From a plasmid, in the sequence record NZ_CP043850.1: a DNA stretch of 64,000 nt. One strand, written 5' to 3'. How positions within the stretch are numbered: position 1 is the stretch's first letter; every line of letters begins with the position of its first letter. This document shows, piece by piece, positions 3,059-30,063 of the stretch. The translations under genes and the position numbers were made by a program. Under the pieces are notes generated by a model. That model was given only the letters and a program-made list of their open reading frames with translations, was not told the DNA's origin and did no database searches.

Positions 3059-3078
3059 GCCAGGAAGGACACGACCGA

Positions 3079-15070: not shown

Positions 15071-15167
15071 AGACGAACAGTATCGTCAGGACGCCGCATT
15101 CTTCCTTCCAAGAATGCAGAAGAGGTGCACCCGGATCCCGGGTGCACCTCTTCTACTGCGCCGCTTC

Positions 15168-16004
15168 TTACTTCTGGATGAAGGCGAGGAGGTCAGGGTT
15201 GATGACCTCGGCGTGCGTGGTCAGCATGCCGTGCGGGTAGCCGGCGTACAGCTTCAGCTCAGAGTTCTGGAGGAGCTCGTGCTGCAGGAGCGCGGCGGCC
15301 TTGTAGGGAACGACCTGGTCGTCGTCGCCCTGCATGACGAGAACGGGGACCGTGATGGCCTTGAGGTCTTCGGTCTGGTCGGTCTCGGAGAAGGCCTTGA
15401 TGCCCTCGTAGTGAGCGAGCGCGCTGCCCGTCATGCCCTGACGCCACCAGTTCGCGACGACCGGCTCGGACACCTCGACACCGTCGCGGTTGAAGCCGTA
15501 GAACGGACCCGACGCCACGGCCTGGAAGAACTCGGCACGGTTGGCGGCGAGAGCGGAACGGAAACCGTCGAGGACCTCGATGGGCGTGCCCTCGGGGTTG
15601 CTGTCGGACTTCAGCATGATGGGAGGAACCGAGGAGACGAGCACGGCCTTGGCGACACGACCCTGGGGCTGACCGTACTTGGCGACGTAGCGAGCGACCT
15701 GGCCGCCGCCGGTGGAGTGGCCGATGTGGATGGCGTTCTGCAGGTCGAGGTGCTCGACGACGGCGTTCACGTCGCTGGCGTAGTGGTCCATGTCGTGGCC
15801 GGTGCTGATCTGCGACGAACGTCCGTGGCCGCGGCGGTCGCTGGCGACGACGCGGTAGCCCTTCGAGAGGAAGTAGAGCATCTGTGCGTCCCAGTCGTCG
15901 GACGACAGCGGCCAGCCGTGGTGGAACACGATGGGCTGGGCGTTCTTGTCGCCCCAGTCCTTGAAGTAGATCTCTGCGCCGTCTTCGGTGGTGATGTATC
16001 CCAT
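15168..16004 (-). CDS. alpha/beta-hydrolase of the non-haem chloroperoxidase / bromoperoxidase type
   Basis: start MGYITTEDGAEIYFKDWG..PIVFHHGWPLSSDDWD; nucleophile elbow GHSTGGG; SD-like AAGGA upstream; the ORF's upstream 29 codons judged not translated. Confidence 0.8.
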   Translation of the reverse strand: MGYITTEDGAEIYFKDWGDKNAQPIVFHHGWPLSSDDWDAQMLYFLSKGYRVVASDRRGHGRSSQISTGHDMDHYASDVNAVVEHLDLQNAIHIGHSTGGGQVARYVAKYGQPQGRVAKAVLVSSVPPIMLKSDSNPEGTPIEVLDGFRSALAANRAEFFQAVASGPFYGFNRDGVEVSEPVVANWWRQGMTGSALAHYEGIKAFSETDQTEDLKAITVPVLVMQGDDDQVVPYKAAALLQHELLQNSELKLYAGYPHGMLTTHAEVINPDLLAFIQK

Positions 16005-16181
16005 GATGAGTCCTTTGTCATGTCGTCGAACGAGCAAGCCCGCGCGACTGGTGGGTAGTTTGCGCCTCGACGATGTGGCGACTGCATTCACGGTAACTTT
16101 CGGGCGCCCGCGATGTCAACGTCGGCCGAATATTGACCCCTTATCGTCGTTGAATTTTGACCCCCTCGAATTGATGTGTTG

Positions 16182-16961
16182 TTACTTGCCCGCGGGTTGT
16201 GCGGGGGTCTTGAGGAGCTCGCGGCGTGCCCTGGTGCGGTAGGAGTCCCCGCCGAGGGTGAGGACTTCCGCGTGGTGAACGAGTCGGTCGATCATCGCGG
16301 CCGCGACGATGTCGTCGGAGAAGATCTCACCCCATCTGCCGAAGGGCATGTTGCTGGTGAGCACGATCGAGCCTTGCTCGTAGCGGGACGCGATGAGTTG
16401 GAAGAACAGGTTCGCGGCGTCCGCGTCGAATGGCAGGTAGCCGACCTCGTCGATGATCAGCATCCGGTAGCGGCGGAGTCGTTTCAGCTCATGCTCGAGC
16501 CGGCCGGCTGCGTGCGCGGCCTGGAGTCGGCCAGCCCAGCCGGTCGCGGTATCGAACAACACCGGGTATCCAGCGTGCGCGGCTTTGATGCCGAGGCCGA
16601 TCGCGAGGTGTGTTTTGCCGACACCGGGTGGGCCGAGCAGGATCACGTTCTCCGCTTTCGGGATGAACGTTGTCGTCGCGAGGTGAGCGAGGACATCGCG
16701 ACGCAGCGAGGGCTGATGGTCGGCGTTGAAGTCGTCCAGGGTCTTCACCGCGGGGAAGTGAGCGCCCGCGATTCGCAGTGTCGTTCCGTTCGCTTCCCGG
16801 TCCGCGACCTGGCGTTGCAGGACCGCGGTGAGGTATTCCTCGTGGGACCAGCCCTCGGTGCGGGCTTGATCGCCGAGGGTCTCCCAGACCCGGCCGATCG
16901 TGGGGGTCTTCAACGCCCGGGTCAGGTATCCCATCGTCGCCGCGATCTCCGTTTCGGGCAT
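16182..16961 (-). CDS. istB: IS21 helper ATPase IstB (intact)
   Basis: 259 aa; Walker A GPPGVGKTHLAIGLG. Confidence 0.9.
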   Translation of the reverse strand: MPETEIAATMGYLTRALKTPTIGRVWETLGDQARTEGWSHEEYLTAVLQRQVADREANGTTLRIAGAHFPAVKTLDDFNADHQPSLRRDVLAHLATTTFIPKAENVILLGPPGVGKTHLAIGLGIKAAHAGYPVLFDTATGWAGRLQAAHAAGRLEHELKRLRRYRMLIIDEVGYLPFDADAANLFFQLIASRYEQGSIVLTSNMPFGRWGEIFSDDIVAAAMIDRLVHHAEVLTLGGDSYRTRARRELLKTPAQPAGK

Positions 16962-18220
16962 CAGAGGACCTCACCGGTTCGAGGATCGACAGGGAAATCG
17001 ACGCCGAACAACTCGTCGTAGTCGGGCAGTTCCCGAAACACCACGCTGGCCGCTGGCTGCCCGCGATGGTGCAGTCGTTCTCGGTCGCGTTTCGCGGCGC
17101 TGAACGTGGAGCGCAGCCCCCTCGCGATCTCGACGTGGACAGGGTCGATGACGGTCGCGTGTTTCGCCCAACAGCGTTCGTGGTCAGCGACGGTGCGGCC
17201 ATCGCAGATCACGATCACTCGTGTCAGCGTGGCCGTCACATCCACCAGCCGCCCAATCACGCGAGGGTCAACGGAGTAGTCGTTGGCATCGATGCGGACG
17301 TAGTAGTCCCGCGCCAATCGGACCCGGTTTCGCAGCCCCGTCACCGGCGGCAGCGGCGGCAACACGGTCATCGCCTGCAGATCCCGCTCCACCACGTCGA
17401 TAGGTCGCCCGCCCAGCGAGCGGATCGTGCGGGAGTTCGCCCGCGGGAGCCACTCCGCGAGTTGGCTGTTGAAACTGTCCGGTGACGCGAACGACCGCCC
17501 GGGCAGGAACGATGTCTCCATGTACTGGTTGTTGCGTTCGGTCATGCCCTTGAACTCCGGATCCCGCGGAGGGGCGAGCACGATCCTCGTCGCCAACGTT
17601 CCCGCGAACGCGGCCGCGGCCTGCGTGACAGTCCCCTTCCCCCCGATCGCGGCCTCACGATCCCAGACGAGCGTCTTCGAGACCCGCCCGACACGAGAGA
17701 TCAGCTGCCACATCCCCGCGACCAGATCGCCCGCCTGCCGGGACGGGAGCATCACCGCGGACAGGAACCGGGAGAACGTCAACGTCATCACGAGCACCGG
17801 CAGCATCAACGCTTGCCCATGCCCGACAGGGATCCGCGGCTCCGGGAACCACAGATCCATCTGCGCGCTCTCGCCAGGAAGATGAATCAGACGATCCGCG
17901 GGATCGACCCCGGCATACTCCGGACGAATCGTCCGGATCCGATCCTTCAGAATCGTGATCGAGTGTTCCCACCCGATCCGCTCCGCGATCACCGTCGCCG
18001 GCATCCTCGCATCCACCACCAAGAGCTTGCGGATCTCGGGCTCCGCAGCGTCAACGAGTGACCCTTTCCCTGCCCGCTGATACGACGGCGGCGTCTCTGA
18101 CGCCAACGCCGACCGCACCGTATTTCGCGCCACACCGAGCCGACGCACGATCTCCTTGATCGACACGCCCTCCGCCCGATGCAACCGCCTGATCTCTGCC
18201 CACTGTTCCAAATTGATCAC
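16961..18220 (-). CDS. istA: IS21-family transposase IstA
   Basis: 419 aa; identical to copy 1. Confidence 0.9.
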   Translation of the reverse strand: MINLEQWAEIRRLHRAEGVSIKEIVRRLGVARNTVRSALASETPPSYQRAGKGSLVDAAEPEIRKLLVVDARMPATVIAERIGWEHSITILKDRIRTIRPEYAGVDPADRLIHLPGESAQMDLWFPEPRIPVGHGQALMLPVLVMTLTFSRFLSAVMLPSRQAGDLVAGMWQLISRVGRVSKTLVWDREAAIGGKGTVTQAAAAFAGTLATRIVLAPPRDPEFKGMTERNNQYMETSFLPGRSFASPDSFNSQLAEWLPRANSRTIRSLGGRPIDVVERDLQAMTVLPPLPPVTGLRNRVRLARDYYVRIDANDYSVDPRVIGRLVDVTATLTRVIVICDGRTVADHERCWAKHATVIDPVHVEIARGLRSTFSAAKRDRERLHHRGQPAASVVFRELPDYDELFGVDFPVDPRTGEVL

Positions 18221-18365
18221 CCTCCAAAGGATGCCCGGAAGGGGTCAAAATTCCCCGACGCTCAGGGGTCAGTATTCACGCGTCGTCGACAGGGGTCCCT
18301 CGCCACAAACGACCGAATCTGTCGAGTCAGTTGCAGAGCGCCGGGGTCAAGGGAACGACTCCGCC

Positions 18366-18932
18366 TTAGCGGGGATGGCGGAGGCCGCGTGACCGTGCGA
18401 TGAGGCAGACCAGCAGCCCGAGGGCTGCTGCCGTACTGGCAAGGTGGATCGGCCACGCCCACGGGCTGTGGTCGCCCCCGGAGATCATGTAGGTGTCGGC
18501 CAGGCCCAATCCCATACCGAAGGAGGCCACCCAGTAGGCAGGGGCCGCGGCGGTAAGCAATCCCAGGCCCATGGTCAGGAGCATCAGAGGGTCGATCCGT
18601 GGCCGGCGCCGGGCCAGGCGACCCAGCACGAGGGCGCCGCCGATTCCTGCGAAGAAAGCGAGCGCGGGGAAGGCCGCCAGCTCGAACACGCTGACCTGCG
18701 GGGCCAAGTCAGCATAGATCTGGGTGAGGCTACGGTCTGCGGGTGCTGCGGCCAGCGGGTTGAGGACGAGGGTCTGCAATGCCCCGAGGAGGGCCAACAT
18801 CGCCAGGAGGGAGGGGATCGCAGTGCGTGTCGCCGGACCCATCCACGCAGGCCTAGCGGAGGCGGGTGAGCCGCCAGCGGTGCGGGGCTCGACCGGGCCC
18901 GGGCGGGCAGAAGGCGGGAAAGGGCGCGACAT
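18366..18932 (-). CDS. hypothetical integral membrane protein
   Basis: 188 aa with several hydrophobic helices. Confidence 0.5.
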   Translation of the reverse strand: MSRPFPPSARPGPVEPRTAGGSPASARPAWMGPATRTAIPSLLAMLALLGALQTLVLNPLAAAPADRSLTQIYADLAPQVSVFELAAFPALAFFAGIGGALVLGRLARRRPRIDPLMLLTMGLGLLTAAAPAYWVASFGMGLGLADTYMISGGDHSPWAWPIHLASTAAALGLLVCLIARSRGLRHPR

Positions 18933-19084
18933 GGGCTCACTCTAGGGCCATCCCCGCGCCTGGCCCTCGGTGACCAAGCAGGGTGCAGGCGCATTGGCTG
19001 GGCATCTGGCTGAGTTGCAGCGGATGGCCCAACTGGCTTCGCCCACTGGCGCGTCTTCGGGACGACGCAAACGACCGAATCTGC

Positions 19085-19582
19085 CTAATCGACGGGCTGG
19101 AATCCAAGTTTCTGGTAGATCCCCATGGCCGCCTCGGAGGTGCCCTCGCCGAAGCGCAGACTCAGGGCGGGGTCGCCGGCGGCGGAGCAGACGTCGACGG
19201 CGTGCTGCACCAGGGCGCGCCCGACCCCCTTCCCGCGCGCGGCGGGATCGGTGAAGAGGTCAATGATGAACGGCCCCGCGAGGTCCGCGTCCCAGATCGA
19301 GTGGGTGACCACCATGATCGCCCCGGCCAGGCGGCCGTCCACCCACGCCGAGGCGCTCGCGTCGGCGCGCAGCTCCCCGTAGTCGCCGCGGAAGGTCGCC
19401 TCCATCTCCTCCCGCGCTTCGGCCAGGTCGGAGGCGGCGACGCCCGGTGGGTAGGCGGCGAGGTAGCACCGGGCCAGGTCATCGGCCGTCCCCGCGTCCA
19501 GTCCTCGGAGCTCGAGGCTTCCAGGGGCGTGGTCAGCGGAGTGGGTCGGCGGCAGGTGAAGGGTCAGCAGGTCAGTAGACAC
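19085..19582 (-). CDS. GNAT-family N-acetyltransferase
   Basis: acetyl-CoA-binding motif RGKGVGRALVQHAV; C-terminal YQKLGF. Confidence 0.75.
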   Translation of the reverse strand: MSTDLLTLHLPPTHSADHAPGSLELRGLDAGTADDLARCYLAAYPPGVAASDLAEAREEMEATFRGDYGELRADASASAWVDGRLAGAIMVVTHSIWDADLAGPFIIDLFTDPAARGKGVGRALVQHAVDVCSAAGDPALSLRFGEGTSEAAMGIYQKLGFQPVD

Positions 19583-19994
19583 AGGGGTTCCTCTCGTGAT
19601 GGTTGGCTACTCACAGTGATGCCGTCACAGAGTGAACATGGTCAGAACGATAACAGCGCACACCTGCTCTCGGAATGAGTCGAGTCGGTCGGAACATGAG
19701 TGACCTATGCATGTCCAAGCAATGCACGCGCTGGCAGTTCGTTTCGGTGGCGGGGATTGGGCCAGCCACAAACAACCGATATGGGCGTTCAGCGAGGGGG
19801 TGAGTCGGTCTCTGCGGATCGGGGGGTCACCGCGGGGAGGTCACAGGGGAGCTTCACGACTGTCCGACTCGCGGCGACGCTTGGTGATCGCAGTCCGAAA
19901 GATGAGCGGCACGATCCCGAGGACGAAAAGACCCCAGCCCACCAGGGCGCGCCATTCCATCTGCGAGTTGGAGAGAACAAGGCTCCCGGCGAGA

Positions 19995-21417
19995 GTTGAG
20001 TCCCGCATAGTGGTGTAGCGCCCGGTGGTCGGGCGTGTCGTCTCAGACGTGGACGCGGCCACCGTGTGATCCGTCGAGTCAACCTTCCACAGAATCCTCG
20101 AATGGAGTCATCACGATGACCGCTCCTCATATTCTCGACCCTGCCGGCCTGCTCGGAGAAGCCCTGTCTGAAGCGTCCCCGGACATGATGCGCCATCTGC
20201 TGCAGACCATGATCAACACCTTGCTGTCCGCGGATGCCGACGCGGTGGTCGGTGCCGAATGGGGCAAGCCCAGCTCCTCGCGCACTGCTCAGCGGAACGG
20301 GTACCGCCACCGGGACCTGGACACCCGGGTCGGCACCCTGGACGTGGCCATCCCCAAGCTCAGATCGGGCACGTACTTCCCGGACTGGCTACTTGAACGC
20401 AGGAAGAGAGCGGAGTCGGCGCTGATCACCGTGGTCGCTGACTGCTACCTCGCCGGGGTCTCGACCCGACGGATGGACAAGCTGGTCAAGACTCTGGGCG
20501 TCAACGCCCTGTCCAAGTCCCAAGTCTCCCGGATGGCCACCGAGCTCGACGAGCAGGTGGAGGCCTTCCGCCACCGGCCGCTCGGGGAGGCGGGACCGTT
20601 CACGTTCGTTGCCGCGGACGCGTTGACGATGAAGGTGCGTGAGGGCGGGCGTGTGGTCAACGCGGTGGTGCTCATCGCCACCGGGGTCAACGGCGACGGC
20701 CACCGCGAAGTGTTGGGCCTGCGGGTGGCCACCAGCGAGACCGGGGCGGCGTGGAACGAGTTCTTCGCCGACCTGGTCGCCCGGGGCCTGGCCGGGGTCC
20801 GGCTGGTCACCTCTGATGCCCACCCCGGGCTCAAGGACGCCATCGCCGCGAACCTGCCCGGTGCGGTGTGGCAACGCTGCCGCACCCACTACGCGGCGAA
20901 CCTGATGGGCATCACCCCGAAGAGCATGTGGCCGGCGGTGAAGGCCATGCTCCACTCGGTCTACGACCAGCCCGATGCCGCCAGCGTCAACGCCCAGTTC
21001 GACCGGCTGCTGGACTACGTGAGCGAGAAACTGCCGGTGGTGGCCGAGCACCTCGATGCTGCCCGGGCCGACATCCTGGCGTTCACCACATTCCCCAAGG
21101 ACGTCTGGACCCAGATCTGGTCGAACAACCCGGCCGAGCGGCTCAACCGCGAGATCCGCCGCCGCACCGACGCGGTGGGCATCTTCCCCAACCGGGCGGC
21201 CATCGTCAGGCTAGTGGGTGCGGTGCTGGCCGAGCAGACCGATGAATGGGCCGAGGGTCGACGCTACCTCGGTCTCGAAGTCCTGGCCCGCTGCCGACTC
21301 ACCACCGTGACCAACACCGGAGACGAGGTGGACCCCGACACCGAACTCAACCTCGGCCTCAGCGCCTGACCCCCATGAAGGATCAGACCGCTACACCATC
21401 ACGAGGGGCTTGACCCC
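19995..21417 (+). mobile_element. IS256-family insertion sequence (right IR 21388..21417; left IR degenerate, only the inner core TGGTGTAGCG recognisable at 20011..20020)
   Basis: transposase gene plus a terminal repeat on the right; left boundary approximate. Confidence 0.65.
20116..21369 (+). CDS. IS256-family (mutator-type) transposase
   Basis: start MTAPHILDPAGLLGE; typical IS256 transposase sequence throughout (..AIPKLRSGTYFPDWLLERRKR.., DDE region). Confidence 0.9.
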   Translation: MTAPHILDPAGLLGEALSEASPDMMRHLLQTMINTLLSADADAVVGAEWGKPSSSRTAQRNGYRHRDLDTRVGTLDVAIPKLRSGTYFPDWLLERRKRAESALITVVADCYLAGVSTRRMDKLVKTLGVNALSKSQVSRMATELDEQVEAFRHRPLGEAGPFTFVAADALTMKVREGGRVVNAVVLIATGVNGDGHREVLGLRVATSETGAAWNEFFADLVARGLAGVRLVTSDAHPGLKDAIAANLPGAVWQRCRTHYAANLMGITPKSMWPAVKAMLHSVYDQPDAASVNAQFDRLLDYVSEKLPVVAEHLDAARADILAFTTFPKDVWTQIWSNNPAERLNREIRRRTDAVGIFPNRAAIVRLVGAVLAEQTDEWAEGRRYLGLEVLARCRLTTVTNTGDEVDPDTELNLGLSA

Positions 21418-21467
21418 GGCGAGCCATAGCGCCATGGTCAGCAAGGTGAGGCCCCAGTAGGTTCGCT

Positions 21468-22790
21468 GTGATTTTCTCATGTCTCCACAGCAGAAGAGTG
21501 GGAGAGGCCATGGGGAAAGGGCCCGGTGGGAGCATGCAGCAGCGACCGATCCGGGCAGAGACGTGGAGACTCCGTTTCGGGGCCAGCATGGTGGGGGATG
21601 GGCCTGGCACCGCGGATCTGGCCCTCGACGAAGCCTGCGGGCCGGGGGAGGATGGGCCGATGAAGGCGAGCGTGCAGGACCTGCTGGCCGGCCCGCGTGG
21701 GCGGCGTCTGTGTCTGGAGGCGACGAGGATGCTCAGCCTCCGGGTTGCCGAGCTGGTGTTCTGGCTGGGCTATGAGCTGGATCCGGGCCGGGGCACCTCC
21801 CTGGTCGTGTGGTCCCCGGGCGGCGGTGCCCTGGAGGCGGGCGCGCGTCCTGCCGTGTCCATCGAGCAGGCGGCGCAAGCGATGGCCGACCTCGACCTCT
21901 CGGGCCTGACGGATGAGGTGGTCCAGGCGGCCCTGGTCGGTACGGTCATGTCGGCCCGGTACTGGCAGGAGCCCGACGGCGAGGATGTGCTCGCCGGGCA
22001 TCCGGCCGTCCAGGCCGCCCTGGAACCGGTGGCCGAGGGCGTGCTGGGCTCGGCAGTGGCCCGGCACTGGGGGAGTCCGCGCGCAGCGGCGCAGTGGGTG
22101 ATCGACTGGCGGGCGTTCGAGGATCCGGCCCCGGTGTCCCGGGATGCTCAAGGGGTCCTGGCGGCCTGGGCTCGGGAAGAACGGCGGCAGGAAGTCCGGG
22201 CTGCCACTGAGCATCCTGCTGATCCGACGGCGAACTTCTCCGGGACCTGGTGGTCCATCCCGCAGGGGGCCGTCGTCAGCGTCGGGCAGATCCCGGCTGG
22301 GTTGGACCTCGTCGAGGACGACATCGGCGCGGAGGCGGCCACGGTGATCCCGGTGCGGGGAGCGGGTCGGACGTATGAGGTCCGTGGCCCCGGTGACTGG
22401 GTCCGGCTGTGTCGGTGGTTCCCGCTGGAGGTCAGTGCCTCGCGTCGGCACGACTGGTACCGGGTGACCGGCCGGTCCGGGCGGTGGGTCATCCCGGACT
22501 GGGAGCAGGTCGCTTCCGAGTGGGACGCGGTGCACCTGACCACCTTGGGCTATCTCGGCGCGGCCACGCGCGCTCTGCCCGTGGACGCGGACATGGCCAC
22601 GGTGCTCGCCGGGTGGAACCCGGACACCACCGTGTGGCTCACCGACACGGTCCGTGAGTCGGAGGAGCCCCGCCAATGTTGGCAGCGCGTATCCGGCGAC
22701 GACGGATGGGCCCGTTGCTTGCCCGTCCGTGATGTCGGCTCGGAGGGCCCCGCGCGGGGACGCGGGGCCAGCCCGCCGGTGGAGGGGTGA
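21468..22790 (+). CDS. hypothetical protein, no recognisable domain; true start may be the internal MGKGPGGSM near 21510
   Basis: long high-GC ORF; translationally coupled to the next ORF. Confidence 0.5.
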   Translation: MIFSCLHSRRVGEAMGKGPGGSMQQRPIRAETWRLRFGASMVGDGPGTADLALDEACGPGEDGPMKASVQDLLAGPRGRRLCLEATRMLSLRVAELVFWLGYELDPGRGTSLVVWSPGGGALEAGARPAVSIEQAAQAMADLDLSGLTDEVVQAALVGTVMSARYWQEPDGEDVLAGHPAVQAALEPVAEGVLGSAVARHWGSPRAAAQWVIDWRAFEDPAPVSRDAQGVLAAWAREERRQEVRAATEHPADPTANFSGTWWSIPQGAVVSVGQIPAGLDLVEDDIGAEAATVIPVRGAGRTYEVRGPGDWVRLCRWFPLEVSASRRHDWYRVTGRSGRWVIPDWEQVASEWDAVHLTTLGYLGAATRALPVDADMATVLAGWNPDTTVWLTDTVRESEEPRQCWQRVSGDDGWARCLPVRDVGSEGPARGRGASPPVEG

Positions 22791-23161
22791 GCAAGCGCGG
22801 GCCTTCTGCGTCGGGCCAGATGCCTTCCACGGAGGCTGTGCTCAGCATCCTTCGGCGTCTGGAGCGGCGTCACTTCAGCCGTGATGTCTATGCGCGGTTG
22901 CTTGACGCCGACGTGACCGGGGAGGTGCTCACGGTGGTGGCCTGGCAGGGGGGTCCTTCCCCGGCGGACCCGGAGCGGGTGATCGCTCACCGCACGGACC
23001 TGCGCCAGCGTCTGACCGAATGCCGTGGCGATCTCGAGGCGGTGCTGATGGATGCGTTGCAGTTCGGTGTGTACGAACCAAGCTCGCCGGGCAGGCCGCC
23101 GGCGGGGGATGAGCCTGCCCGGCTGCTGGAGAAGTATCCCGAGGCCACCTGGTACGAGTGA
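22787..23161 (+). CDS. hypothetical protein (124 aa) coupled to the upstream gene
   Basis: GTGA overlap with the upstream stop; protein-like composition. Confidence 0.45.
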   Translation: MSKRGPSASGQMPSTEAVLSILRRLERRHFSRDVYARLLDADVTGEVLTVVAWQGGPSPADPERVIAHRTDLRQRLTECRGDLEAVLMDALQFGVYEPSSPGRPPAGDEPARLLEKYPEATWYE

Positions 23162-23304
23162 GGAAGCTGGAGCGACGCGCGGCAACATCTGGTCAGCGTC
23201 CAGTCGGGTATACCCCTTTACACACCCCCCGCCGCCACGAGAGGATCACGTCAGAGTGGGTTCATTTTGGACCCGTTGGACATACCTGACGGAGGGTCTT
23301 AGAC

Positions 23305-23883
23305 GTGGTTGGACAGACTGTGGGGTACGTGCGGGTGAGCTCGGCGGAGCAGAACCTGGACCGCCAGCTCGAGGCGGTGGGGGAGTGCGACCGTGTCTTC
23401 CAGGACAAGATCTCCGGCAGCTCCCGCGCCAAGCGCGCCGGGCTGGCGGAGCTGATGCGGTACGTCCGCGAGGGGGATCTGGTGAAGGTCGCCTCCATGG
23501 ACCGGCTGGGCCGGGACACCCGGGACCTGTACGCCATCGTGGACGAACTGACCGACAAGGGGTGCGCGGTGCAGTTCGTGTCCGAGCGGATCACCGTGGA
23601 CAAGTCCGGCACCTCCCCGGTGGACGGGCTCATGCTGGGCATCCTGGCCGCGTTCGCTGAGTTCGAGCGTCGACGGATCAAGGAGCGCCAGGCAGAAGGC
23701 ATCGCCCTGGCCAAGACGAGAGGCAAGTACGTGCAGGCCCCGAAGCTCTCGGACACCGACGTGGAGCAGGCCCGGGTGATGATCGAGATGGGGATCCCGA
23801 AGGCTGAGGTCGCTCGCACCTTCGGGGTCAGCCGGCAAACCCTGTACACCTCCCTCGCTCGCGGAGCAACGATGTTGCCTTGA
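23305..23883 (+). CDS. serine recombinase (resolvase/invertase family)
   Basis: catalytic-serine motif GYVRVSSAEQNLDRQ; C-terminal HTH VARTFGVSRQTLY. Confidence 0.9.
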   Translation: MVGQTVGYVRVSSAEQNLDRQLEAVGECDRVFQDKISGSSRAKRAGLAELMRYVREGDLVKVASMDRLGRDTRDLYAIVDELTDKGCAVQFVSERITVDKSGTSPVDGLMLGILAAFAEFERRRIKERQAEGIALAKTRGKYVQAPKLSDTDVEQARVMIEMGIPKAEVARTFGVSRQTLYTSLARGATMLP

Positions 23884-23884
23884 G

Positions 23885-26080
23885 TGCCCCAAGGGGAGAG
23901 TCAGACCCCTGCTAGTAAGCTTCACGGGTAGGGGTAATGGTGAACCACCAACGGCTCGACTGTAGGGCATTTTTGTGCAGTCCGTGCATTTACCAAATTG
24001 GTTTAGAAAATCCTACGGACCCGCCCGACGCAGATATCTTTATATCGGTCCTCTCCTCCTTTAATCTCCATGCCCCTTGGGTCACGGCAGTCGGCGTGGC
24101 GGCTATGAAATACCCCAGCGCTTTAGCGACACGCTGACGAACATCGAAAGATCAATCAGTCGCCATCTCATTGAGCTTCTGCAGCCAACTCTTCACGTCC
24201 CCCGCAGGGTCTGCTTCTTTTAATCTATCCAATGTCATTTTTTCAAATGCTTCGTCCGCGAGGCGCCTCTTTACGATTTCCTCCTTTATGGGTCTGTGAT
24301 CAGGCGCGTTTTTGGTAGCGTCGCTTACGAGCTTAGGGACGTTGCAGTCGTCTGTAACTTCAACCCGCACCCCCAGCGCTTCGAAAATGGCCTCCGGGTG
24401 TAGATAGTTCTCCATCATCTTCTTTGAAGTGAGTGTTGCAAACGATCCGTCACCGCGATTGTTTACCGCGTCGACGGATTGTTGGTATTTACTAACGTCA
24501 TTGTCATAAAGATGAAACTCGCGGCGTCGTAAATCTTTTAGGTACCGCTTGCTTACCCACTGGCCCAGAGTGCCCCCTCCCTGGGGAACAAATGCAAAAC
24601 GATGGTCTGCCATGAGATCTGGGTACGCTCCGGGATCTTCCTCATGCAACTTTCTAGAGATCTTCTGGAGCGACGTAACGTCATGTGGGCCCTCAACGCA
24701 TATGAGAACTTTAACTCGATTGTCCGGCTGCACACCGAGTTCATCAGCGAGCTCTGCCCACATATCGTCATTTCCTTGTAAGATTGAGGGCTCTTCTGAG
24801 TAAATGTCCTTACGTATATACCGAATACTCTTTGCTGGCAAATGGGAAACGAATCCGGGACTATGGGAAGTGAGGATGACCTGAGTTCCGGGAACTTCGG
24901 CCATGAGCTGGAATGAGTCGAGCAGGATTTTCTGATTACGGGGGTGCTGTGATGTCTCTGGCTCTTCGAGTGCGTAGATTACAGATGATTTATCACTGGA
25001 CTCAAGCATGCGCTGGGCCTCAGCTTTGAAGAAGCTCACCAGGATTAGCCGACGAACTCCAGAGCCACGCTTGTTTATGGCCACCCCATTGGAGCCATGC
25101 AATGCGACAGAGAAGAGACTATGCCAGCGAGGGTCACTCTTAAACTCGGGGACTAACCCTTCGGCGATAGCGGGGTCGATCTCTGAGAGGGCCTCGTGAG
25201 TTCGAGACGCCAAATCCGTCGCCTTGCCTCGAACTGCTTCTACGACCTCCTCCAGGAGCTTCTGGACAGAGTCTTCAGCTAGCGCGGCTGTGATCGCCAT
25301 TTTCATGGGTTCCTGGACTTCGTCATCTGCATCAGTACTTTTGCGATCTGACTGGAACAGGGCAAAGTAAGGCAGATAACCGGTCAATTTGGTGAATATT
25401 TTACCGCCATCTTCTTTACCTAGAGAGATTTCGGATTCTGACAAATTTAGATCTTCGCATCCCCATAGGGCGGCTCTTAGGTCAGGGTTAGAAGCCTTGT
25501 TGACATGGTTGTATTCTGACGGGTCAAGACGAGTTCTGGCCAGTGACTTAAGTGCCGTATTTGTTAGAGAGAGTAGGTTATCTAGCTCCTTATTTATAGG
25601 ATGTTGGCATACTACATACGTCTCTTCTTTCGGCTTGGAGCTGGTGCATACCCACCGCTTTCTGAGCTGAAGGCATCCGTCCTTGTCCAACAGGTGTTCC
25701 TGGGCGAGGCTCGTTTCTGCCTGCGCATCGAGGACTAGGGAAGGGGGAAGCTCGGAAAACTTACATGTAATTTGGAAAAAATTTTCCGATGTGGAGACAT
25801 TTTTATCGGTGATATCCGGTTTTACGACATTTCCTCCAAAGAATATATCTAGAGCCTCTAGTATCGTTGACTTGCCAACGTCGTTACGGCCAACGATTGT
25901 GGTCAGGTCTTCGAAGCTAACCCATTTCTCTTCTCGGTAGCCACGGAAATTTTTTAATGAGACGGCAATGAGCTTCATCGAGGGCCTGAATTCTTTGAAG
26001 GTGGCGGTACTTTGCGTGGGTTGTGTGAGTATAAAAGAACGATGACGGAAGGCCTGTTGAAAAATCACGACACTACATGC
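23885..26080. other. low-GC (~40-45%) island in a ~70% GC background, carrying a single gene
   Basis: base composition read directly, e.g. 24/60 GC at 25381..25440. Confidence 0.8.
24152..25978 (-). CDS. OLD-family / GajA-like ATP-dependent nuclease (N-terminal ABC-type ATPase plus C-terminal Toprim)
   Basis: start MKLIAVSLKNFRGY; Walker A GRNDVGKSTILEAL; D-loop ALEEPETSQHP; H-loop ILTSHSP; Toprim VLICVEGPHD. Confidence 0.7.
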   Translation of the reverse strand: MKLIAVSLKNFRGYREEKWVSFEDLTTIVGRNDVGKSTILEALDIFFGGNVVKPDITDKNVSTSENFFQITCKFSELPPSLVLDAQAETSLAQEHLLDKDGCLQLRKRWVCTSSKPKEETYVVCQHPINKELDNLLSLTNTALKSLARTRLDPSEYNHVNKASNPDLRAALWGCEDLNLSESEISLGKEDGGKIFTKLTGYLPYFALFQSDRKSTDADDEVQEPMKMAITAALAEDSVQKLLEEVVEAVRGKATDLASRTHEALSEIDPAIAEGLVPEFKSDPRWHSLFSVALHGSNGVAINKRGSGVRRLILVSFFKAEAQRMLESSDKSSVIYALEEPETSQHPRNQKILLDSFQLMAEVPGTQVILTSHSPGFVSHLPAKSIRYIRKDIYSEEPSILQGNDDMWAELADELGVQPDNRVKVLICVEGPHDVTSLQKISRKLHEEDPGAYPDLMADHRFAFVPQGGGTLGQWVSKRYLKDLRRREFHLYDNDVSKYQQSVDAVNNRGDGSFATLTSKKMMENYLHPEAIFEALGVRVEVTDDCNVPKLVSDATKNAPDHRPIKEEIVKRRLADEAFEKMTLDRLKEADPAGDVKSWLQKLNEMATD

Positions 26081-26420
26081 GCGACGATCAAGACCATCTG
26101 GTATGGGCCATCGTGCCAGGCGCCCTGAGTAGAGGCAAGACTTTGGTGAGGGGAGTTCTGAGAGCGGGTGCTGTTCCTTCAGATCGAGTGGCGACAGCGG
26201 CGACGCTCGTGTAGGTCGAGGCCCACCTGAAGGGCCTGCATAACTGGCCGGGGCGAGTATCTGAGGATGCCGTCGCCTGCTTGCCCCGGGTAAGAGCGTC
26301 AGAGGGCAGCGGCAACTCGAAGAGGGGACGCTGTAAAAAAATGCACTTCAGAAGAGGAGCGCATTTGACCCGTGCGGGCACAACTCGAGCACCAACCTGC
26401 TCCTGCTACTCCCATGGGTG

Positions 26421-29261
26421 TCAGGCCGTTAACTCGGCGTAGCGGGTGAAGAGCAGTTCCTGACGCTCCAGCTCGGTGCGGCAACGCCGTGCGGCGCCGA
26501 AGGCCTTGTCCACCTCCGTGTCCAGCGCGTCGTGGGCCTTCACCAAAGCCGGGTCCATGCCTAGTGCCGTGTAGTGCTGAGCTAGGGAGCGTCCGGGGTG
26601 CAGAGCGCGTGCGGCCAGCACCTTCTGGCCGGCGGCAATGATCTTCTCCCGTTGTCCCTCGGCCAGAGGCGGTAGGGGCAGGGTGGTCCACGTCAACGTG
26701 GAACCGAACCGCAAGTCCGACTTGAGGCGGCCGCCGACGGTCTTCTGCCAGGTCAGGAACATGCTCGAGGAGAGCATGGCGAACTGGAACCCGTCTGGGT
26801 CCGGGCACTGGAAGGTCGCATCGCTGGCGATCACCGTCTGCGGCAGTAACTGAACGGGGAAGTAGGGACGTTCCTCGGAGACATGGCGTGGGATGCACAC
26901 GTAATCCGTGGCCAACGCCTGCACCTGACGGAACAGGTGGTGATGACGGTAATCGCGGGTAGACGCTGCGGCAGAGCGGCCCCGGAACTGTCGGACCGCC
27001 TCCACGCGCTCGTGCAACACCGGGGAGGCGTGGATCTCCGCCCCGGTCGCCTGGACCAGCCACAGGCACCATCGCTCTTCAGAATGCAACAGCTCACGGG
27101 CACCGACGTAGGGCCGCAGGTACTTCGCGGCGATCGGATCTGCTCGTACCTGCTCCACCTCCGTAGCACCGACCAGCAGATGCCCATCGTCCGTGGGCTT
27201 GGATCCGTACATCGGCATGTTTAGCTCCGCCGAGATCGGCCGGCTGCGCTTGGTCACCAACACGTTGGGCCCGTCCACCAGGTAGGCGTTGATCGTCTTC
27301 ACCCCGGGCACTTCGCGGGCCTCACTGCGCGCGTGCTCGTATTTGAACAGGCGCGCCTTGGCATCGGGGTCGCGGGTGAAGCCGATGATCACGCAGTGCA
27401 CCGCGGCCTTGCCGGGGGCCTGGGAGTCCCACGCGAAAGTGCGGTGGGCGAACTTGATCCGCCAGCCGGCGGCGAAGATCGGGGCGAACAATCGAGCCGG
27501 CTGGTCCCCCTGCACGATCGAGTTCGTGGTCACGAACGCCCACTCCCCATCCCGATCGGTGAACAAGCGCAAGGTGAGCGCGTGCCAGGCGGTGACGTAG
27601 TCCAGGCGAGAGAGATCCTTGTTGCCACCCCAGGCGGCGTGCATCAAGGCGAGCTGCGCCCTGGTTCGGGTGGTGTCACCCAGGAACGGGGGGTTGCCGA
27701 ACACGAACGTGCGCCCGGCCGGGGCGGGGAGGGCCTGAGACCAGTCGAGGGTGAGCGCGTCGTGCTGGTAGATCGTGGCGGTGATCTTGATCGGCAGACG
27801 CACCGGGGCCTGGCCGAGCGCGGCGGCCAGCTGCCGATTGGCCTGATGGTCCACGAGGAACATGGCGGTCTCGGCGATCTTGGCCGGCCACCAGTTGATC
27901 TCGACCCCGTAGAACCGGTCGATGTGGATCCGCTGGTCCAAGCTCACGTCCAGGGACAGGTCCAGGGACCCGGTGCGGCGGCGCTGGTCGGCCAGCAGGT
28001 CCGTCTCGATCTCGCGCAGCTTGGCGTAGGCCAGGTTCAAGAAGTTGCCGGCCCCGCAGGCCGGGTCGACGTAGATGTTGGCGGCCATCTCCTCGATCAG
28101 CCCGATCACCTCACGCCGGGTGGTGGTCTTGTTCTGGATGAGCCGGTCCGCGCGGGCGCGGTACTCGTCCAGGAAGAGCGGGCCGATGGTCTTGAGGATG
28201 TTCTCCTCGGAGGTGTAGTGCTCCCCGTCCCCGCGGCGGGCCTGCTTGGACTTGACCAGTTGGAACATGGAGCCGAATACGGCCGGGGAGATCTGGGTCC
28301 ACCGGAACCGGCAGGCTGCCACGAGCGCGTCCCGGAAGTCGTTGGTGAGGAAGCCGGCCGTGGAGGTGCCGTCGAAGATGCCGCCGTTGACGTAGGGGAA
28401 GCGGGCCAGAGAGTCCGGCACACCGCGGCGCCGGTTCTCGGGGGTGTTGAGCACGCGGAAGAGCGCGTCGAGCTGGGGGCCGAGGTTGTCGGCGGTGGTG
28501 TCCCACTCCACCCAACGCTGGAACAGGTCGGCCTCCCACAGGCCGGCGTCGTCTCCGTAGAGCAGGAACAGCAGCCGGGTGAGCAGGATCGAGGCCTGCT
28601 GGGTGGCGAACTCCTCCTCTTCGGCGTCCTCGGGGGCCTCCTCGCCCACGGGTACGTCCACCTCGTCCCCGACGAGGGCGGTGAACATGGAGGCCATCAG
28701 CTGCGCGGCCGCGATGGAGGCCTCTTGTTCCTCGGTCTTGGTCACGGTGTCCCGGCCGGCCAGGAACATCAGCTGGTCCACGTGATCGGTGGCCTCTTGC
28801 ACGGTGAACTCGGACACCCAGCCGGCCTCGCCCAGACGTTCGACGCGGATGCGGGCGAAGTCTGTGACGAGCACGTACTTGGGCCACTCGTGCTGACCGA
28901 TGGATCCGCCGGCCAGGTAGTCCAGGGCCTGGGCGTGGGCGACGTCGAGGTCGGCACCCAGGGACTTGGCCTCGCCCAGGGCGACGCCGGACCAGAAGAA
29001 GTCGATGTAGCCGGCCCCGCCGGTGGAGGCGCGCGCGGCCCCGCGCTCGAACAGGTCGATGCGCTCGGGGATCACCCCGAAGGTTCGCAGCAGGTCGGAC
29101 CAGAACTGCTGGGCGAAGGACTTCTCCGTGTGGGTCTGTCCATCGGCGCGCCAGCGGTCGATGCGCTGACCCCAGGCATGTCCGAAGTCGTCCAGGGCTG
29201 TGCGGATGACGCCGCGATCTGCAAGTTGCTCCACAGGCACAACGTACAGCGACCTGAGCAA
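26421..29261 (-). CDS. MmeI-family type IIL (IIG) restriction-modification enzyme (fused PD-ExK nuclease, gamma-class N6-adenine methyltransferase and specificity region)
   Basis: 946 aa; N-terminal D..EAK motif (YIDFFWSGVALGEAKS); SAM motif VDPACGAGNFL; catalytic motif FGNPPF. Confidence 0.7.
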   Translation of the reverse strand: MLRSLYVVPVEQLADRGVIRTALDDFGHAWGQRIDRWRADGQTHTEKSFAQQFWSDLLRTFGVIPERIDLFERGAARASTGGAGYIDFFWSGVALGEAKSLGADLDVAHAQALDYLAGGSIGQHEWPKYVLVTDFARIRVERLGEAGWVSEFTVQEATDHVDQLMFLAGRDTVTKTEEQEASIAAAQLMASMFTALVGDEVDVPVGEEAPEDAEEEEFATQQASILLTRLLFLLYGDDAGLWEADLFQRWVEWDTTADNLGPQLDALFRVLNTPENRRRGVPDSLARFPYVNGGIFDGTSTAGFLTNDFRDALVAACRFRWTQISPAVFGSMFQLVKSKQARRGDGEHYTSEENILKTIGPLFLDEYRARADRLIQNKTTTRREVIGLIEEMAANIYVDPACGAGNFLNLAYAKLREIETDLLADQRRRTGSLDLSLDVSLDQRIHIDRFYGVEINWWPAKIAETAMFLVDHQANRQLAAALGQAPVRLPIKITATIYQHDALTLDWSQALPAPAGRTFVFGNPPFLGDTTRTRAQLALMHAAWGGNKDLSRLDYVTAWHALTLRLFTDRDGEWAFVTTNSIVQGDQPARLFAPIFAAGWRIKFAHRTFAWDSQAPGKAAVHCVIIGFTRDPDAKARLFKYEHARSEAREVPGVKTINAYLVDGPNVLVTKRSRPISAELNMPMYGSKPTDDGHLLVGATEVEQVRADPIAAKYLRPYVGARELLHSEERWCLWLVQATGAEIHASPVLHERVEAVRQFRGRSAAASTRDYRHHHLFRQVQALATDYVCIPRHVSEERPYFPVQLLPQTVIASDATFQCPDPDGFQFAMLSSSMFLTWQKTVGGRLKSDLRFGSTLTWTTLPLPPLAEGQREKIIAAGQKVLAARALHPGRSLAQHYTALGMDPALVKAHDALDTEVDKAFGAARRCRTELERQELLFTRYAELTA

Positions 29262-29397
29262 GCCCCCTCATCTGAGATAACCGGTTCGGGAGCCACGCCG
29301 CCGGCGTAGAGGGGGCAGGGGGGTGGTGTAGCTCTGCCTAGGATCGGTGGCGATGCACCCTCGCATCGCGTCATCTGCTCGAGCAAGGAACTCGCCC

Positions 29398-30063
29398 ATG
29401 TCACGACGCTCTCTGGCTTCTCTGGCCACTGCTGCTGCTTTAGTCGCCACCGCTGTCCTCGGGGGTGCGGGATCGGCGGCAGCCGGCACCACGTACTCGG
29501 CCCCGTTGCGCACGGCTGTGGCGTCGTTGCCGGTCGCGGCGGAGAACAATGCCGGCTATGACCGGGCCGCCCAGTTCGGGGACTGGAAGGATGCGAACAG
29601 GGACTGCCAGAACACTCGGGCAGAGGTGTTGATCGCAGAGTCCAAGACCACCCCGAAGTTCACGACGGCCCGTAAGTGCACGGTGGCCACGGGCAAGTGG
29701 GTGAGCAGCTGGGATCTGCGCACGCACACGTCTGCATCGACGGTGCAGATCGATCACATGGTGCCCGTGCATGAGGCGTGGGGCTCGGGAGCCCGGTACT
29801 GGACCAAGGCCAAGCGGGTGGCGTTCTACAACGACTTGGGGGATGCCCGGTCGCTGAACGCGCAGACCTCGGCGTTGAACTCGGCCAAGCAGGCCCGCGG
29901 TCCGGAGCAGTGGCTGCCGCCGAAGAACCAGTGCAAGTACATCGCTGACTGGACCGCGGTGAAGATCCGCTGGGGGTTGAAGGCTGACGCCACGGAGAAG
30001 GCGTTCTTGGTGAAGAAGGCCGCCTCCTGCGCAAACACCACCCTGAAGGTGACCCGGTACTGA
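29398..30063 (+). CDS. secreted HNH-like nuclease-domain protein (DUF1524 / GmrSD C-terminal-domain-like)
   Basis: signal peptide MSRRSLASLATAAALVATAVLGGAGSAAA; motifs DWKDANRDCQNTR, IDHMVPVHEAW, NS.K. Confidence 0.5.
   Translation: MSRRSLASLATAAALVATAVLGGAGSAAAGTTYSAPLRTAVASLPVAAENNAGYDRAAQFGDWKDANRDCQNTRAEVLIAESKTTPKFTTARKCTVATGKWVSSWDLRTHTSASTVQIDHMVPVHEAWGSGARYWTKAKRVAFYNDLGDARSLNAQTSALNSAKQARGPEQWLPPKNQCKYIADWTAVKIRWGLKADATEKAFLVKKAASCANTTLKVTRY

What the first reader, a model, noticed from the sequence alone, without database searches (positions are those of the whole stretch)
23885..26080. Foreign low-GC single-gene island encoding a standalone OLD/GajA-like ATPase-Toprim nuclease, beside a serine recombinase
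A ~2.2 kb segment of ~40-45% GC sits in a ~70% GC replicon. It carries one gene whose product has an N-terminal ABC-type ATPase (GRNDVGKST; D-loop LEEPE..HP; H-loop TSHSP) and a C-terminal Toprim (ICVEGPHD). That is the architecture of phage-P2 Old and of Gabija GajA, but no UvrD-like GajB partner is present. The island starts right after the stop codon of a resolvase-type serine recombinase (23305..23883) and is followed by a 440-bp spacer and then an MmeI-like R-M gene. This looks like a recently acquired anti-phage or anti-plasmid cassette, possibly moved by the serine recombinase.
Basis: partly seen in the sequence, partly recalled or inferred. Interest (0 to 1): 0.7.

Follow-up and report, generated by a model that had tools for sequence, protein, structure and literature searches.

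The report
Foreign standalone OLD nuclease gene on plasmid
A horizontally acquired, low-GC gene for an OLD-family ATPase-nuclease (a known kind of anti-phage protein) sits in a variable cargo slot of a Micrococcus plasmid next to a restriction enzyme gene; it is a real but fairly ordinary defence-island feature.

Summary
One intact gene (24152..25978, minus strand, 608 aa) lies in a ~2.25 kb low-GC patch. The gene is 49.5% GC and 52.5% GC3; the window is 67% and neighbouring genes have 83-90% GC3. This is the compositional minimum of the whole window.

No UvrD/GajB, retron or AriB partner is present, either here or across 85 homologous loci, so it is a standalone (class-1-context) OLD nuclease.

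Related Micrococcus plasmids share the flanking recombinase and HNH genes but carry different cargo, or almost none, between them. The gene is therefore a recent acquisition into a variable slot (23853..29335) that also holds the MmeI-like gene.

The recombinase is a resident plasmid resolvase with its own res-like site. It is not the island's private mobiliser.

Function (phage or plasmid defence by a two-metal nuclease) is inferred, not shown. New member of a known kind; modest interest.

The parts
24152..25978 (-). OLD-family nuclease gene, 608 aa including the stop codon at 24152-24154. The 100% identical protein is NCBI MCV7508976, 'ATP-binding protein [Micrococcus luteus]'.
   Evidence: ORF. 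Start fixed at 25978 by homologues and by the start of nucleotide homology. Full-length Foldseek top hits are Ts OLD 6p74 (1e-17), then GajA and retron Eco8 OLD.
24803..25978 (-). Residues 1-392: OLD-type ABC ATPase. It carries Walker A K36, Q-loop Q209, signature-like KRGSG 303-307, Walker B E338/E339 and H-loop H372. A helical insertion at about residues 213-300 is the presumed dimerisation domain.
   Evidence: Pfam AAA_15 over residues 1-377, E=2.3e-73. A profile of 75 homologues hits Ts OLD 6p74 at 2.6e-20. The motif residues are invariant in those 75 homologues. AF2 pLDDT is above 90 for the core and 53-70 for the insertion.
24155..24796 (-). Residues 395-608: divergent Toprim domain plus a C-terminal helical bundle. 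Candidate active-site residues are E429 and D433 (VEGPHD), D492/D494 (DND), E523 (ENY) and K570.
23853..26100 (.). Low-GC patch: the gene plus its own flanking non-coding DNA. It is the compositionally foreign segment.
   Evidence: 100-bp and 400-bp GC profiles. Per-feature GC. GC3 and the global-minimum test.
23853..29335 (.). Variable cargo slot between two conserved plasmid genes. Here it holds the OLD gene and the MmeI-like gene.
   Evidence: blastn against plasmids CP101529, pSGAir0127 and pJD12: homology stops at 23852 and resumes at 29336-29339 in all three. The slot is ~350 bp in CP101529. The other two plasmids carry different genes there.
23196..23304 (+). Conserved region upstream of the recombinase gene. 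It contains the palindrome GGGTATACCC (23206-23215), a probable res crossover site.
   Evidence: Five independent comparators diverge immediately to the left of the palindrome: three plasmids, and metagenome scaffold L005, which is 99.6% identical from 33094 down to 23206. The motif is unique in the window.
23305..23883 (+). Small serine recombinase (resolvase/invertase type, 192 aa), convergent with the OLD gene.
   Evidence: Pfam Resolvase 1.3e-36 plus HTH_7. 88% nt identity to the recombinases of Micrococcus plasmids that lack the OLD gene. GC3 0.896.
25979..26420 (-). 442-bp spacer between the MmeI-like gene and the OLD gene. It contains a weak terminator-like hairpin plus U-run at ~26335-26366. 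A 97-aa ORF called here by some pipelines looks spurious.
   Evidence: Sequence. Fold (not significant against shuffles). The ORF shows no GC3 enrichment, 0.56/0.63/0.63. The spacer is not shared with pLMV7, whose MmeI-like gene is 82.6% identical.
26421..29261 (-). MmeI-like type IIG restriction-modification gene (946 aa) on the same strand, upstream of the OLD gene. GC is host-like.
   Evidence: Pfam MmeI_N, MmeI_hel, MmeI_Mtase, MmeI_TRD and MmeI_C. PADLOC REase_MTase_IIG, 1033 bits. D87...E-A-K motif. GC 67.2%, GC3 0.89.
29347..30063 (+). Conserved right-hand frame gene: an HNH/GmrSD_C-like protein with an N-terminal signal-peptide-like segment.
   Evidence: Pfam GmrSD_C 5e-6. 95% nt identity to the 'HNH endonuclease family protein' genes of three Micrococcus plasmids.

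Best explanation
Window 24152..25978 (minus strand) encodes a standalone OLD-family (overcoming lysogenisation defect) nuclease.

Architecture:
- An ABC-type ATPase head with an inserted helical dimerisation element.
- This is fused to a divergent Toprim nuclease domain and a C-terminal helical bundle.

Origin (shown by comparison):
- The gene was acquired horizontally from a lower-GC source.
- It landed in a variable cargo slot of a Micrococcus luteus plasmid, between a resident res/resolvase module and a conserved HNH gene.
- It sits beside an MmeI-like type IIG restriction-modification gene.

Mechanism (inferred from the family):
- The ATPase dimer acts as sensor or regulator.
- On a phage- or foreign-DNA-derived cue it licenses the Toprim site. 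That site is a two-metal centre formed by E429/D492/D494 and D433/E523, with K570 stabilising the transition state.
- The site then cuts nucleic acid, either by nicking or degrading DNA or by cutting tRNA. This blocks phage replication or kills the infected cell.

The gene most probably works on its own, as a second layer next to the restriction enzyme, and is not an obligate partner of that enzyme.
For: Identity:
- AAA_15 E=2.3e-73.
- The best solved relative by sequence profile is Ts OLD class 1, at 2.6e-20. That alignment runs into the Toprim VEGxxD motif.
- Full-length AF2 model: pLDDT 85. Foldseek top hits are Ts OLD, GajA and retron Eco8 OLD.
- All ATPase and Toprim catalytic-type residues are invariant across 75 homologues of 48-75% identity. 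They correspond to the published Ts/Bp OLD metal A, metal B and Lys/Arg positions (PMC7049728).

Standalone status:
- The neighbours here are a convergent recombinase and an R-M gene. No retron RNA is found.
- Across 85 homologous loci no partner is conserved, and a UvrD-like gene is adjacent only once.
- Homologues stand alone in Glutamicibacter and Leucobacter, and on 362 plasmid records.

Foreign and recent:
- GC and GC3.
- The gene is absent from the same slot in three related plasmids.
- The identical protein occurs only in near-identical modules.

Defence role:
- Class 1 OLDs P2 Old, Vc OLD and YbjD have anti-phage phenotypes (PMC12445682, PMC12392090, PMC13261556).
- The neighbourhood is R-M rich.
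Against: - No experiment bears on this protein or its ~600-aa clade.
- The C-terminal region matches no Toprim sequence profile. Foldseek support is weak (E 5e-3, TM 0.36-0.51).
- For YbjD the Toprim domain was dispensable for its phenotype. Nuclease-based defence cannot therefore be assumed for every class 1 OLD.
- An archaeal OLD ATPase (Cran1) has a non-defence role.
- At least 15 of 85 family loci are tightly linked to R-M genes, so independence from the neighbouring MmeI-like enzyme is not certain.
Confidence: 0.7

Rival explanations
1. R-M-coupled guard. The OLD protein works together with the adjacent MmeI-like type IIG enzyme. It would be a back-up that fires when a phage anti-restriction protein blocks restriction, as PrrC does with EcoprrI and as PARIS does on sensing Ocr.
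For: - The OLD gene lies downstream of the R-M gene on the same strand.
- In this family, 50%-identical homologues are embedded between hsdM and hsdS of type I operons, with overlapping stop and start codons.
- Others sit 3-7 bp downstream of an Eco57I-like IIG gene (L065) or of HpaII and LlaJI REase genes. Others are adjacent to N6_N4 MTase plus SNF2 helicase pairs.
- An MmeI-like gene also neighbours the homologue in L089.
- Embedding in R-M/BREX/Hma systems is a documented predictor of defence genes. ABC ATPase-Toprim fusions such as HEC-04 were validated that way.
Against: - Here the two genes differ sharply in GC (67% against 49.5%).
- They are separated by 442 bp containing a terminator-like hairpin.
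- The closest MmeI-like relative, in pLMV7, has no OLD gene beside it.
- The closest OLD relatives (69-75% identity, actinobacterial) are not next to R-M genes.
- About 75-80% of family loci show no R-M gene within 5 kb.
Confidence: 0.15
2. Orphan Gabija GajA. The gene is a class 2 OLD that lost its GajB helicase partner and is inactive or decaying.
For: - Many PADLOC GajA models hit the protein, down to 2.6e-22. One of them spans residues 289-605.
- The CTR's best structural match is a class 2 OLD CTR, with a C-terminal helical bundle and an invariant Lys like Bp K562.
- The length of 608 aa is above the 500-600 aa range used for class 1.
Against: - The ORF is intact and identical in 21 contigs.
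- The whole ~600-aa family keeps its catalytic residues.
- The family lacks a UvrD neighbour in 84 of 85 loci. Absence of GajB is therefore the family's normal state, not a loss.
- By sequence profile Ts OLD (class 1) scores far better than GajA: 2.6e-20 against 6e-12.
Confidence: 0.05
3. Fused PARIS (AriA-AriB in one polypeptide, class 4 OLD). It would sense anti-restriction proteins and cleave tRNA.
For: - The best PADLOC model is 'AriA' PDLC02979, at 2.1e-60.
- Fused AriAB forms are reported in the literature.
Against: - The AriA model hit covers only residues 1-377 over 373 of 373 model positions. That is the same span as generic Pfam AAA_15.
- Solved AriA matches only at E 0.07 for the single sequence and 3.5e-5 for the profile. 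This is worse than Ts OLD, GajA and PtuA.
- There is no DUF4435 or AriB profile hit on the CTR.
Confidence: 0.04
4. Not a defence gene. The ATPase-nuclease would serve the plasmid itself (maintenance, competition with other plasmids, recombination or repair) or a cell-cycle role like the archaeal OLD ATPase Cran1.
For: - The family is abundant on conjugative plasmids and transposons: 362 plasmid records, including a 608-aa homologue beside the sil operon and a TnsD-family (Tn7-like) transposition gene.
- Here the gene sits next to a resolvase.
- The ATPase has weak RecF/SMC/Rad50-like similarity.
- Non-defence OLD ATPases exist.
Against: - The gene is dispensable, since sister plasmids lack it.
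- It is compositionally foreign.
- It recurs in R-M operons and defence islands: next to an AAA_21-DUF4435 protein, AbiEii, nSTAND and HEPN genes.
- All characterised bacterial relatives have anti-phage phenotypes.
Confidence: 0.06

Closest known systems
Thermus scotoductus OLD (PDB 6P74), class 1 OLD family nuclease
   Same: - Best solved relative by sequence profile (2.6e-20) and by full-length Foldseek (1e-17).
- Single isolated gene.
- ABC ATPase with an inserted dimerisation element, followed by a Toprim domain.
- E/D/DxD/E metal ligands are conserved.
   Different: - Ts OLD is 528 aa and lacks a C-terminal helical domain. Its transition-state residue is R487, in a loop.
- This protein is 608 aa. 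It has a four-helix C-terminal bundle with an invariant K570.
- Only about 17% identity.
Burkholderia pseudomallei / Xanthomonas campestris class 2 OLD C-terminal regions (PDB 6NK8, 6NJV-X) and Gabija GajA
   Same: - Toprim plus helical domain, with a conserved Lys that could play the role of Bp K562.
   Different: [quoted passage not shown]
- None is present here, and one is present in only 1 of 85 family loci.
- Sequence similarity to GajA is confined to the ATPase.
Phage P2 Old, Vibrio cholerae Vc OLD, E. coli YbjD/OldB (characterised class 1 OLDs)
   Same: Standalone ATPase-Toprim proteins on mobile elements or in islands, with anti-phage phenotypes.
   Different: - Their triggers and substrates differ from one another. 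P2 Old cuts tRNA anticodon stems after RecBCD inhibition. Vc OLD nicks DNA. YbjD does not need its Toprim domain.
- None of these properties can be transferred to this protein.
- The PADLOC P2-type 'Old' model matches only partially: 4.6e-19, in two stretches.
R-M-embedded ABC ATPase effectors (PrrC, RloC; HEC-04 ATPase-Toprim fusion; PARIS)
   Same: - Members of this ~600-aa clade are embedded in type I, type II and type IIG R-M operons.
- These systems are embedded in, or triggered through, R-M systems in the same way.
   Different: - PrrC and RloC use HEPN-type anticodon nucleases, not Toprim.
- HEC-04 is smaller, judging from the published positions of its active-site residues (E319, D375, D377).
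- In the window the linkage to the R-M gene is loose: 442 bp apart and different GC.

Membership tests
OLD family nucleases (general) | N-terminal ABC-type ATPase of the OLD/AAA_15 kind with intact Walker A, Walker B and H-loop | tested here: met
   Pfam AAA_15 E=2.3e-73, full-length model match. K36, E338/E339 and H372 are invariant in 75 homologues. The motifs are located in the sequence.
OLD family nucleases (general) | C-terminal Toprim domain carrying the conserved Glu and the DxD motif | tested here: met
   [not shown]
OLD family nucleases (general) | Metal-dependent nuclease and ATPase activities | not testable with these tools
   Requires purified protein.
Class 1 OLD (isolated gene) | Isolated gene with no dedicated partner (context-based definition) | tested here: met
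   Neighbours are a convergent resolvase and a compositionally distinct R-M gene 442 bp away. No conserved neighbour was found in 85 family loci.
Class 1 OLD (isolated gene) | Length about 500-600 aa, and a CTR without the class 2 helical domain (Ts OLD paradigm) | tested here: not met
   The protein is 608 aa. Predicted helices at 547-607 follow the Toprim core. The best CTR match is the class 2 Bp OLD CTR. It is therefore class 1 by context but class-2-like in CTR architecture.
Class 2 OLD / Gabija GajA | [quoted passage not shown] | tested here: not met
   Downstream of the gene lie a 268-bp spacer and a convergent recombinase. Only 1 of 85 family loci has an adjacent UvrD-like gene, the NERD-UvrD in L080.
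Class 3 OLD (retron effector) | Adjacent reverse transcriptase and msr/msd non-coding RNA | tested here: not met
   No RT among the neighbours. No Rfam hit at E<=0.1 in 19000-31000.
Class 4 OLD / PARIS (AriA + AriB, or fused) | AriA-type ATPase together with an AriB DUF4435-type Toprim | tested here: not met
   [not shown]
Mobile cassette of a serine recombinase | Recombination sites of the recombinase flank the cargo, and cargo and recombinase travel together | tested here: not met
   The res-like motif occurs once, upstream of the recombinase gene. No convincing repeats flank 23853-26100. The same recombinase (88% nt identity) occurs without the OLD gene in three plasmids. Recombinases near other family members are only 33-35% identical.

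The most novel reading that the evidence does not exclude
The ~600-aa clade to which this gene belongs may be a distinct, uncharacterised OLD lineage.
- Its C-terminal region forms 993 clusters at 50% identity and is invisible to current Toprim profiles.
- It is class 1 by context and class-2-like in C-terminal architecture.
- It may be specialised as a restriction-linked back-up nuclease. On this reading it is repeatedly captured inside or beside type I, II and IIG R-M operons, and fires when restriction is neutralised.
- In the window it would guard the MmeI-like enzyme.
Probability: 0.15. Interest if true: 0.6.

Novelty: new member of a known kind. Interest (0 to 1): 0.3.

Why it matters
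- It adds a well-delimited natural example of a standalone OLD-family nuclease on an actinobacterial plasmid. Sister plasmids with an 'empty' site show that it arrived recently.
- It exposes a recombinase-to-HNH cargo slot in Micrococcus plasmids that collects different defence genes.
- Standalone (class 1) OLD proteins are the least understood OLD class. This ~600-aa clade has a Toprim region that current profile libraries miss, so defence-finding pipelines probably under-call its nuclease domain.
- The clade's recurrent embedding in R-M operons gives a testable hint about its trigger.
- None of this changes current concepts. It is an incremental, annotatable finding.

Tried and rejected
1. 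Sequence-profile detection of the Toprim domain failed. Pfam and PADLOC on the C-terminal 232 aa at E<=10 gave nothing relevant. A 22-sequence CTR profile against PDB sequences gave only spurious hits. The question was resolved by structure prediction.
2. I searched for an OLD-less version of the exact rec-MmeI-HNH arrangement by exact-protein look-up of the MmeI-like product. Nothing was on record, with either L or M as first residue.
3. Contig L013 seemed to offer a different right-hand junction for the island. It turned out to be an ISL3-family transposase insertion at ~26438, which is uninformative.
4. I looked for flanking repeats or target-site duplications around 23853-26100. Only short or imperfect matches were found, including a 26-nt, 77% inverted pair at 23955/26331. 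They were judged to be chance.
5. Nucleotide homology to the closest relatives (Glutamicibacter, Leucobacter) stops exactly at the ORF ends. No shared mobile-unit flanks can be defined.
6. Promoter and terminator consensus scans gave nothing above shuffle expectation. The hairpin after the MmeI-like gene is not significant against shuffles.
7. The 97-aa ORF in the spacer (26088-26381), called as a gene in some assemblies, was rejected as spurious on codon-position GC.
8. A conserved OLD-recombinase partnership was rejected. Recombinases near L022, L089 and L097 are only 33-35% identical to this one.
9. The phage collection holds no close relative. The best hit is an unannotated 8-kb faecal contig, 43% identical over the ATPase only.
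Full report
**1. Observation**

The segment holds one long ORF on the minus strand (24152..26068 by the ORF listing). The true start is the ATG at 25978, giving 608 aa that begin MKLIAV. Two results fix this. All 120 listed homologues are ~596-631 aa and align from that Met. Nucleotide homology to the Glutamicibacter and Leucobacter genes begins exactly at 25978 and ends within the ORF.

The flanking genes are as stated:
- a 192-aa resolvase-type serine recombinase at 23305..23883;
- a 442-bp spacer;
- a 946-aa MmeI-like type IIG R-M gene with all five MmeI Pfam domains.

The GC figures need correcting. The gene is 49.5% GC and the spacers are 53.7% and 57.9%. The window average is 67.1%.

The anomaly is nevertheless strong. 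A gene-sized window here is the global minimum of the 64 kb: 0.495, against 0.676 +/- 0.023 elsewhere. GC3 is 0.525, against 0.83-0.90 in ten other genes. GC falls at ~23853-23900 and recovers near 26100.

**2. What the protein is**

Residues 1-377 match Pfam AAA_15 end to end (E=2.3e-73). A profile of 75 homologues finds Thermus scotoductus OLD (6P74, class 1) at 2.6e-20, ahead of GajA (6e-12), PtuA, Rad50 and AriA. That alignment runs into the VEGxxD motif, so E429/D433 align with Ts E377/D381.

No sequence profile recognises the last ~214 residues:
- Pfam and PADLOC at E<=10 give nothing meaningful.
- A CTR-only profile finds no OLD chain in the PDB.

I therefore modelled the protein.
- The full-length AF2 model has pLDDT 85. 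Its Foldseek top hits are Ts OLD (1e-17), GajA and the retron Eco8 OLD.
- The CTR alone models at pLDDT 90, pTM 0.83.
- Foldseek's top three hits are the Xanthomonas class 2 OLD CTR. This support is weak: E 5e-3 to 4e-2, TM 0.36-0.51.

Invariant residues in 75 sequences include K36, Q209, E338/E339, H372, E429, D433, D492, D494, E523 and K570. These correspond to the published metal A ligands (Ts E377, D431, D433), the metal B ligands (D381, S478, E480) and the Lys/Arg transition-state residue (Bp K562, Ts R487).

K570 lies in a C-terminal helical bundle (helices 547-607). Class 2 OLDs have such a domain and Ts OLD lacks it. So the Toprim call is right, but it rests on structure, not on profile HMMs. 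The correspondence of E523 and K570 to the published residues is inferred and was not measured.

**3. Standalone or part of a system?**

In the window nothing resembling GajB/UvrD, a retron RT/ncRNA or AriB is adjacent.

I collected 85 homologous loci. Eighty came from a scan of one genome per species, in which 553+ stretches across many bacterial phyla, plus an archaeal MAG, encode relatives. Five came from exact-protein look-ups. Clustering all neighbours within 5 kb gave no family present in more than 7 loci. A UvrD-like gene is adjacent once.

The close actinobacterial relatives (69-75% identity) stand alone in low-GC islands. On plasmids the family is common: 362 records, 291 of them conjugative. 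They include a 608-aa homologue beside the sil operon and a TnsD-family (Tn7-like) transposition gene in enterobacterial plasmids, again alone.

The CTR family comprises 993 clusters at 50% identity. It almost always occupies positions ~390-620 of ~600-630-aa proteins. By the context-based scheme this is therefore a class 1 OLD, although its length and CTR architecture are class-2-like.

**4. A recurrent R-M link in the family**

Three 50%-identical homologues lie between hsdM and hsdS of type I operons, with overlapping stop and start codons. Other family members sit:
- 3-7 bp downstream of HpaII-type, LlaJI-type or Eco57I-like IIG genes;
- next to N6_N4 methyltransferase plus SNF2 helicase pairs;
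- beside an MmeI-like gene, in L089.

At least 15 of 85 loci are tightly linked to R-M genes, and about 22 of 85 have R-M genes within 5 kb. This fits the published 'guilt-by-embedding' pattern for ABC ATPase effectors. It motivates the guard hypothesis.

In the window, however, the linkage is loose. The two genes differ in GC by 18 points. They are 442 bp apart, with a weak terminator-like hairpin between them. The nearest MmeI-like relative, in pLMV7 (82.6% nt), has no OLD gene.

**5. Genomic setting and mobility**

The identical protein is NCBI MCV7508976 from Micrococcus luteus. The window is nearly identical to contig JALXRQ020000006.1 of GCA_025148905.2.

Three Micrococcus plasmids (CP101529, pSGAir0127, pJD12) share two flanks with the window:
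- 23196/8..23852 at 88% identity (upstream region plus the recombinase gene);
- 29336/9..~30190 at 95% identity (the HNH-family gene).

The DNA between these flanks differs in each plasmid:

| Plasmid | Content of the slot |
|---|---|
| CP101529 | ~350 bp |
| pSGAir0127 | hypothetical gene, YfbU gene, a methyltransferase gene |
| pJD12 | a hydrolase fragment, hypothetical genes, a DEAD helicase plus methyltransferase pair |
| Window | OLD gene plus MmeI-like gene |

The unit that varies is therefore the 5.5-kb slot 23853..29335. The low-GC OLD patch is its most recent-looking layer.

All comparators diverge immediately to the left of a palindrome, GGGTATACCC (23206-23215). This includes a metagenome scaffold that is 99.6% identical from 33094 down to 23206. 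The motif is unique in the window. It is a plausible res crossover site, and it explains the left mosaic joint of the whole block.

It does not explain insertion of the OLD gene itself:
- no second site or convincing repeat flanks the island;
- the recombinase has host-like composition;
- the recombinase occurs without the OLD gene elsewhere;
- recombinases near other family members are only 33-35% identical.

**6. Mechanism**

Shown:
- domain identity;
- conservation of catalytic-type residues;
- standalone context;
- foreign composition;
- presence/absence polymorphism.

Inferred from the family:
- an ATPase dimer that senses or gates;
- a two-metal Toprim nuclease that nicks or degrades DNA, or cuts tRNA;
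- a resulting replication block or abortive infection.

Trigger and substrate cannot be deduced. The three characterised class 1 proteins differ in both, and YbjD does not even need its Toprim domain.

**7. Verdict**

The finding is real and was read essentially correctly. It is a new member of a known kind (OLD family nuclease). Public databases already annotate it as 'ATP-binding protein' or 'OLD family endonuclease'.

The points of modest added value are:
- the divergent Toprim/helical CTR that profile libraries miss;
- the variable cargo slot in Micrococcus plasmids;
- the clade's repeated capture by R-M operons.

Interest 0.3.

Noticed in passing
window 23196-23852 and 29336-30190 (slot 23853-29335); L001, L002, L003: A conserved res/resolvase gene and an HNH-family gene frame a variable cargo slot in Micrococcus plasmids. 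The slot is almost empty in CP101529. It holds other methyltransferase/helicase genes in pSGAir0127 and pJD12, and the OLD plus MmeI-like genes here.
   Followed up: yes
window 23206-23215: The palindrome GGGTATACCC lies just upstream of the recombinase gene. Every comparator, including a 99.6%-identical metagenome scaffold, loses homology immediately to its left. It is a probable res crossover site and a plasmid mosaic joint.
   Followed up: partly
L003:9405-9535 (pJD12): A 131-bp duplicate of the recombinase 3' end (equivalent to window 23722-23852) precedes the second cargo block of pJD12. The record annotates it as a tiny HTH protein. This suggests repeated recombination at that point.
   Followed up: partly
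window ~19994-21414: An IS256-family transposase gene (Transposase_mut, E=4e-133) lies on a segment (~19994-21414) that is absent from the otherwise 99.8-100% identical contig L004. The flanking alignments overlap by about 9 bp.
   Followed up: partly
window 10999-18292 (ORFs 11847-13106 and 16961-18220, both minus strand): A ~7.3 kb segment is absent from L004. It contains two ORFs of identical length (419 aa), which may be two copies of an insertion sequence or a composite transposon.
   Followed up: no
L013:1-807, junction at window ~26438: In one public read-set assembly an ISL3-family transposase gene abuts the 3' end of the MmeI-like gene, upstream of the OLD gene.
   Followed up: partly
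L019, L021, L018, L024, L027 (type I operons); L065, L073, L075, L077, L079, L040, L091, L101: Homologues of the OLD protein are embedded in, or translationally coupled to, R-M operons of at least five kinds: type I between hsdM and hsdS, HpaII+Dcm, LlaJI-like, Eco57I-like IIG, and N6_N4 MTase plus SNF2 helicase.
   Followed up: partly
L102, L103 (enterobacterial plasmids pUMH16, pRDB9): A 608-aa homologue (~35% identity) sits alone beside the sil silver/copper resistance operon in both plasmids. In IncHI2 plasmid pRDB9 a TnsD-family (Tn7-like) transposition gene lies upstream. Relatives occur on 362 plasmid records. Some are annotated as AAA family ATPase and some as TOPRIM domain-containing protein.
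   Followed up: partly
L014:4598-6202 (Glutamicibacter sp. X7): The 75%-identical homologue lies in a ~7-kb low-GC island. The island also holds a fused AAA_21-DUF4435 (PARIS-like) protein.
   Followed up: no
window 29347-30063: The conserved 'HNH endonuclease family' gene has only a weak GmrSD_C match. It starts with a signal-peptide-like segment, which suggests a secreted or membrane-anchored nuclease-like protein, not a cytoplasmic defence enzyme.
   Followed up: no
window 23955-23980 and 26331-26356: A 26-nt imperfect inverted repeat (77% complementary) brackets the OLD gene. It is probably chance. The right arm overlaps the terminator-like hairpin after the MmeI-like gene.
   Followed up: partly
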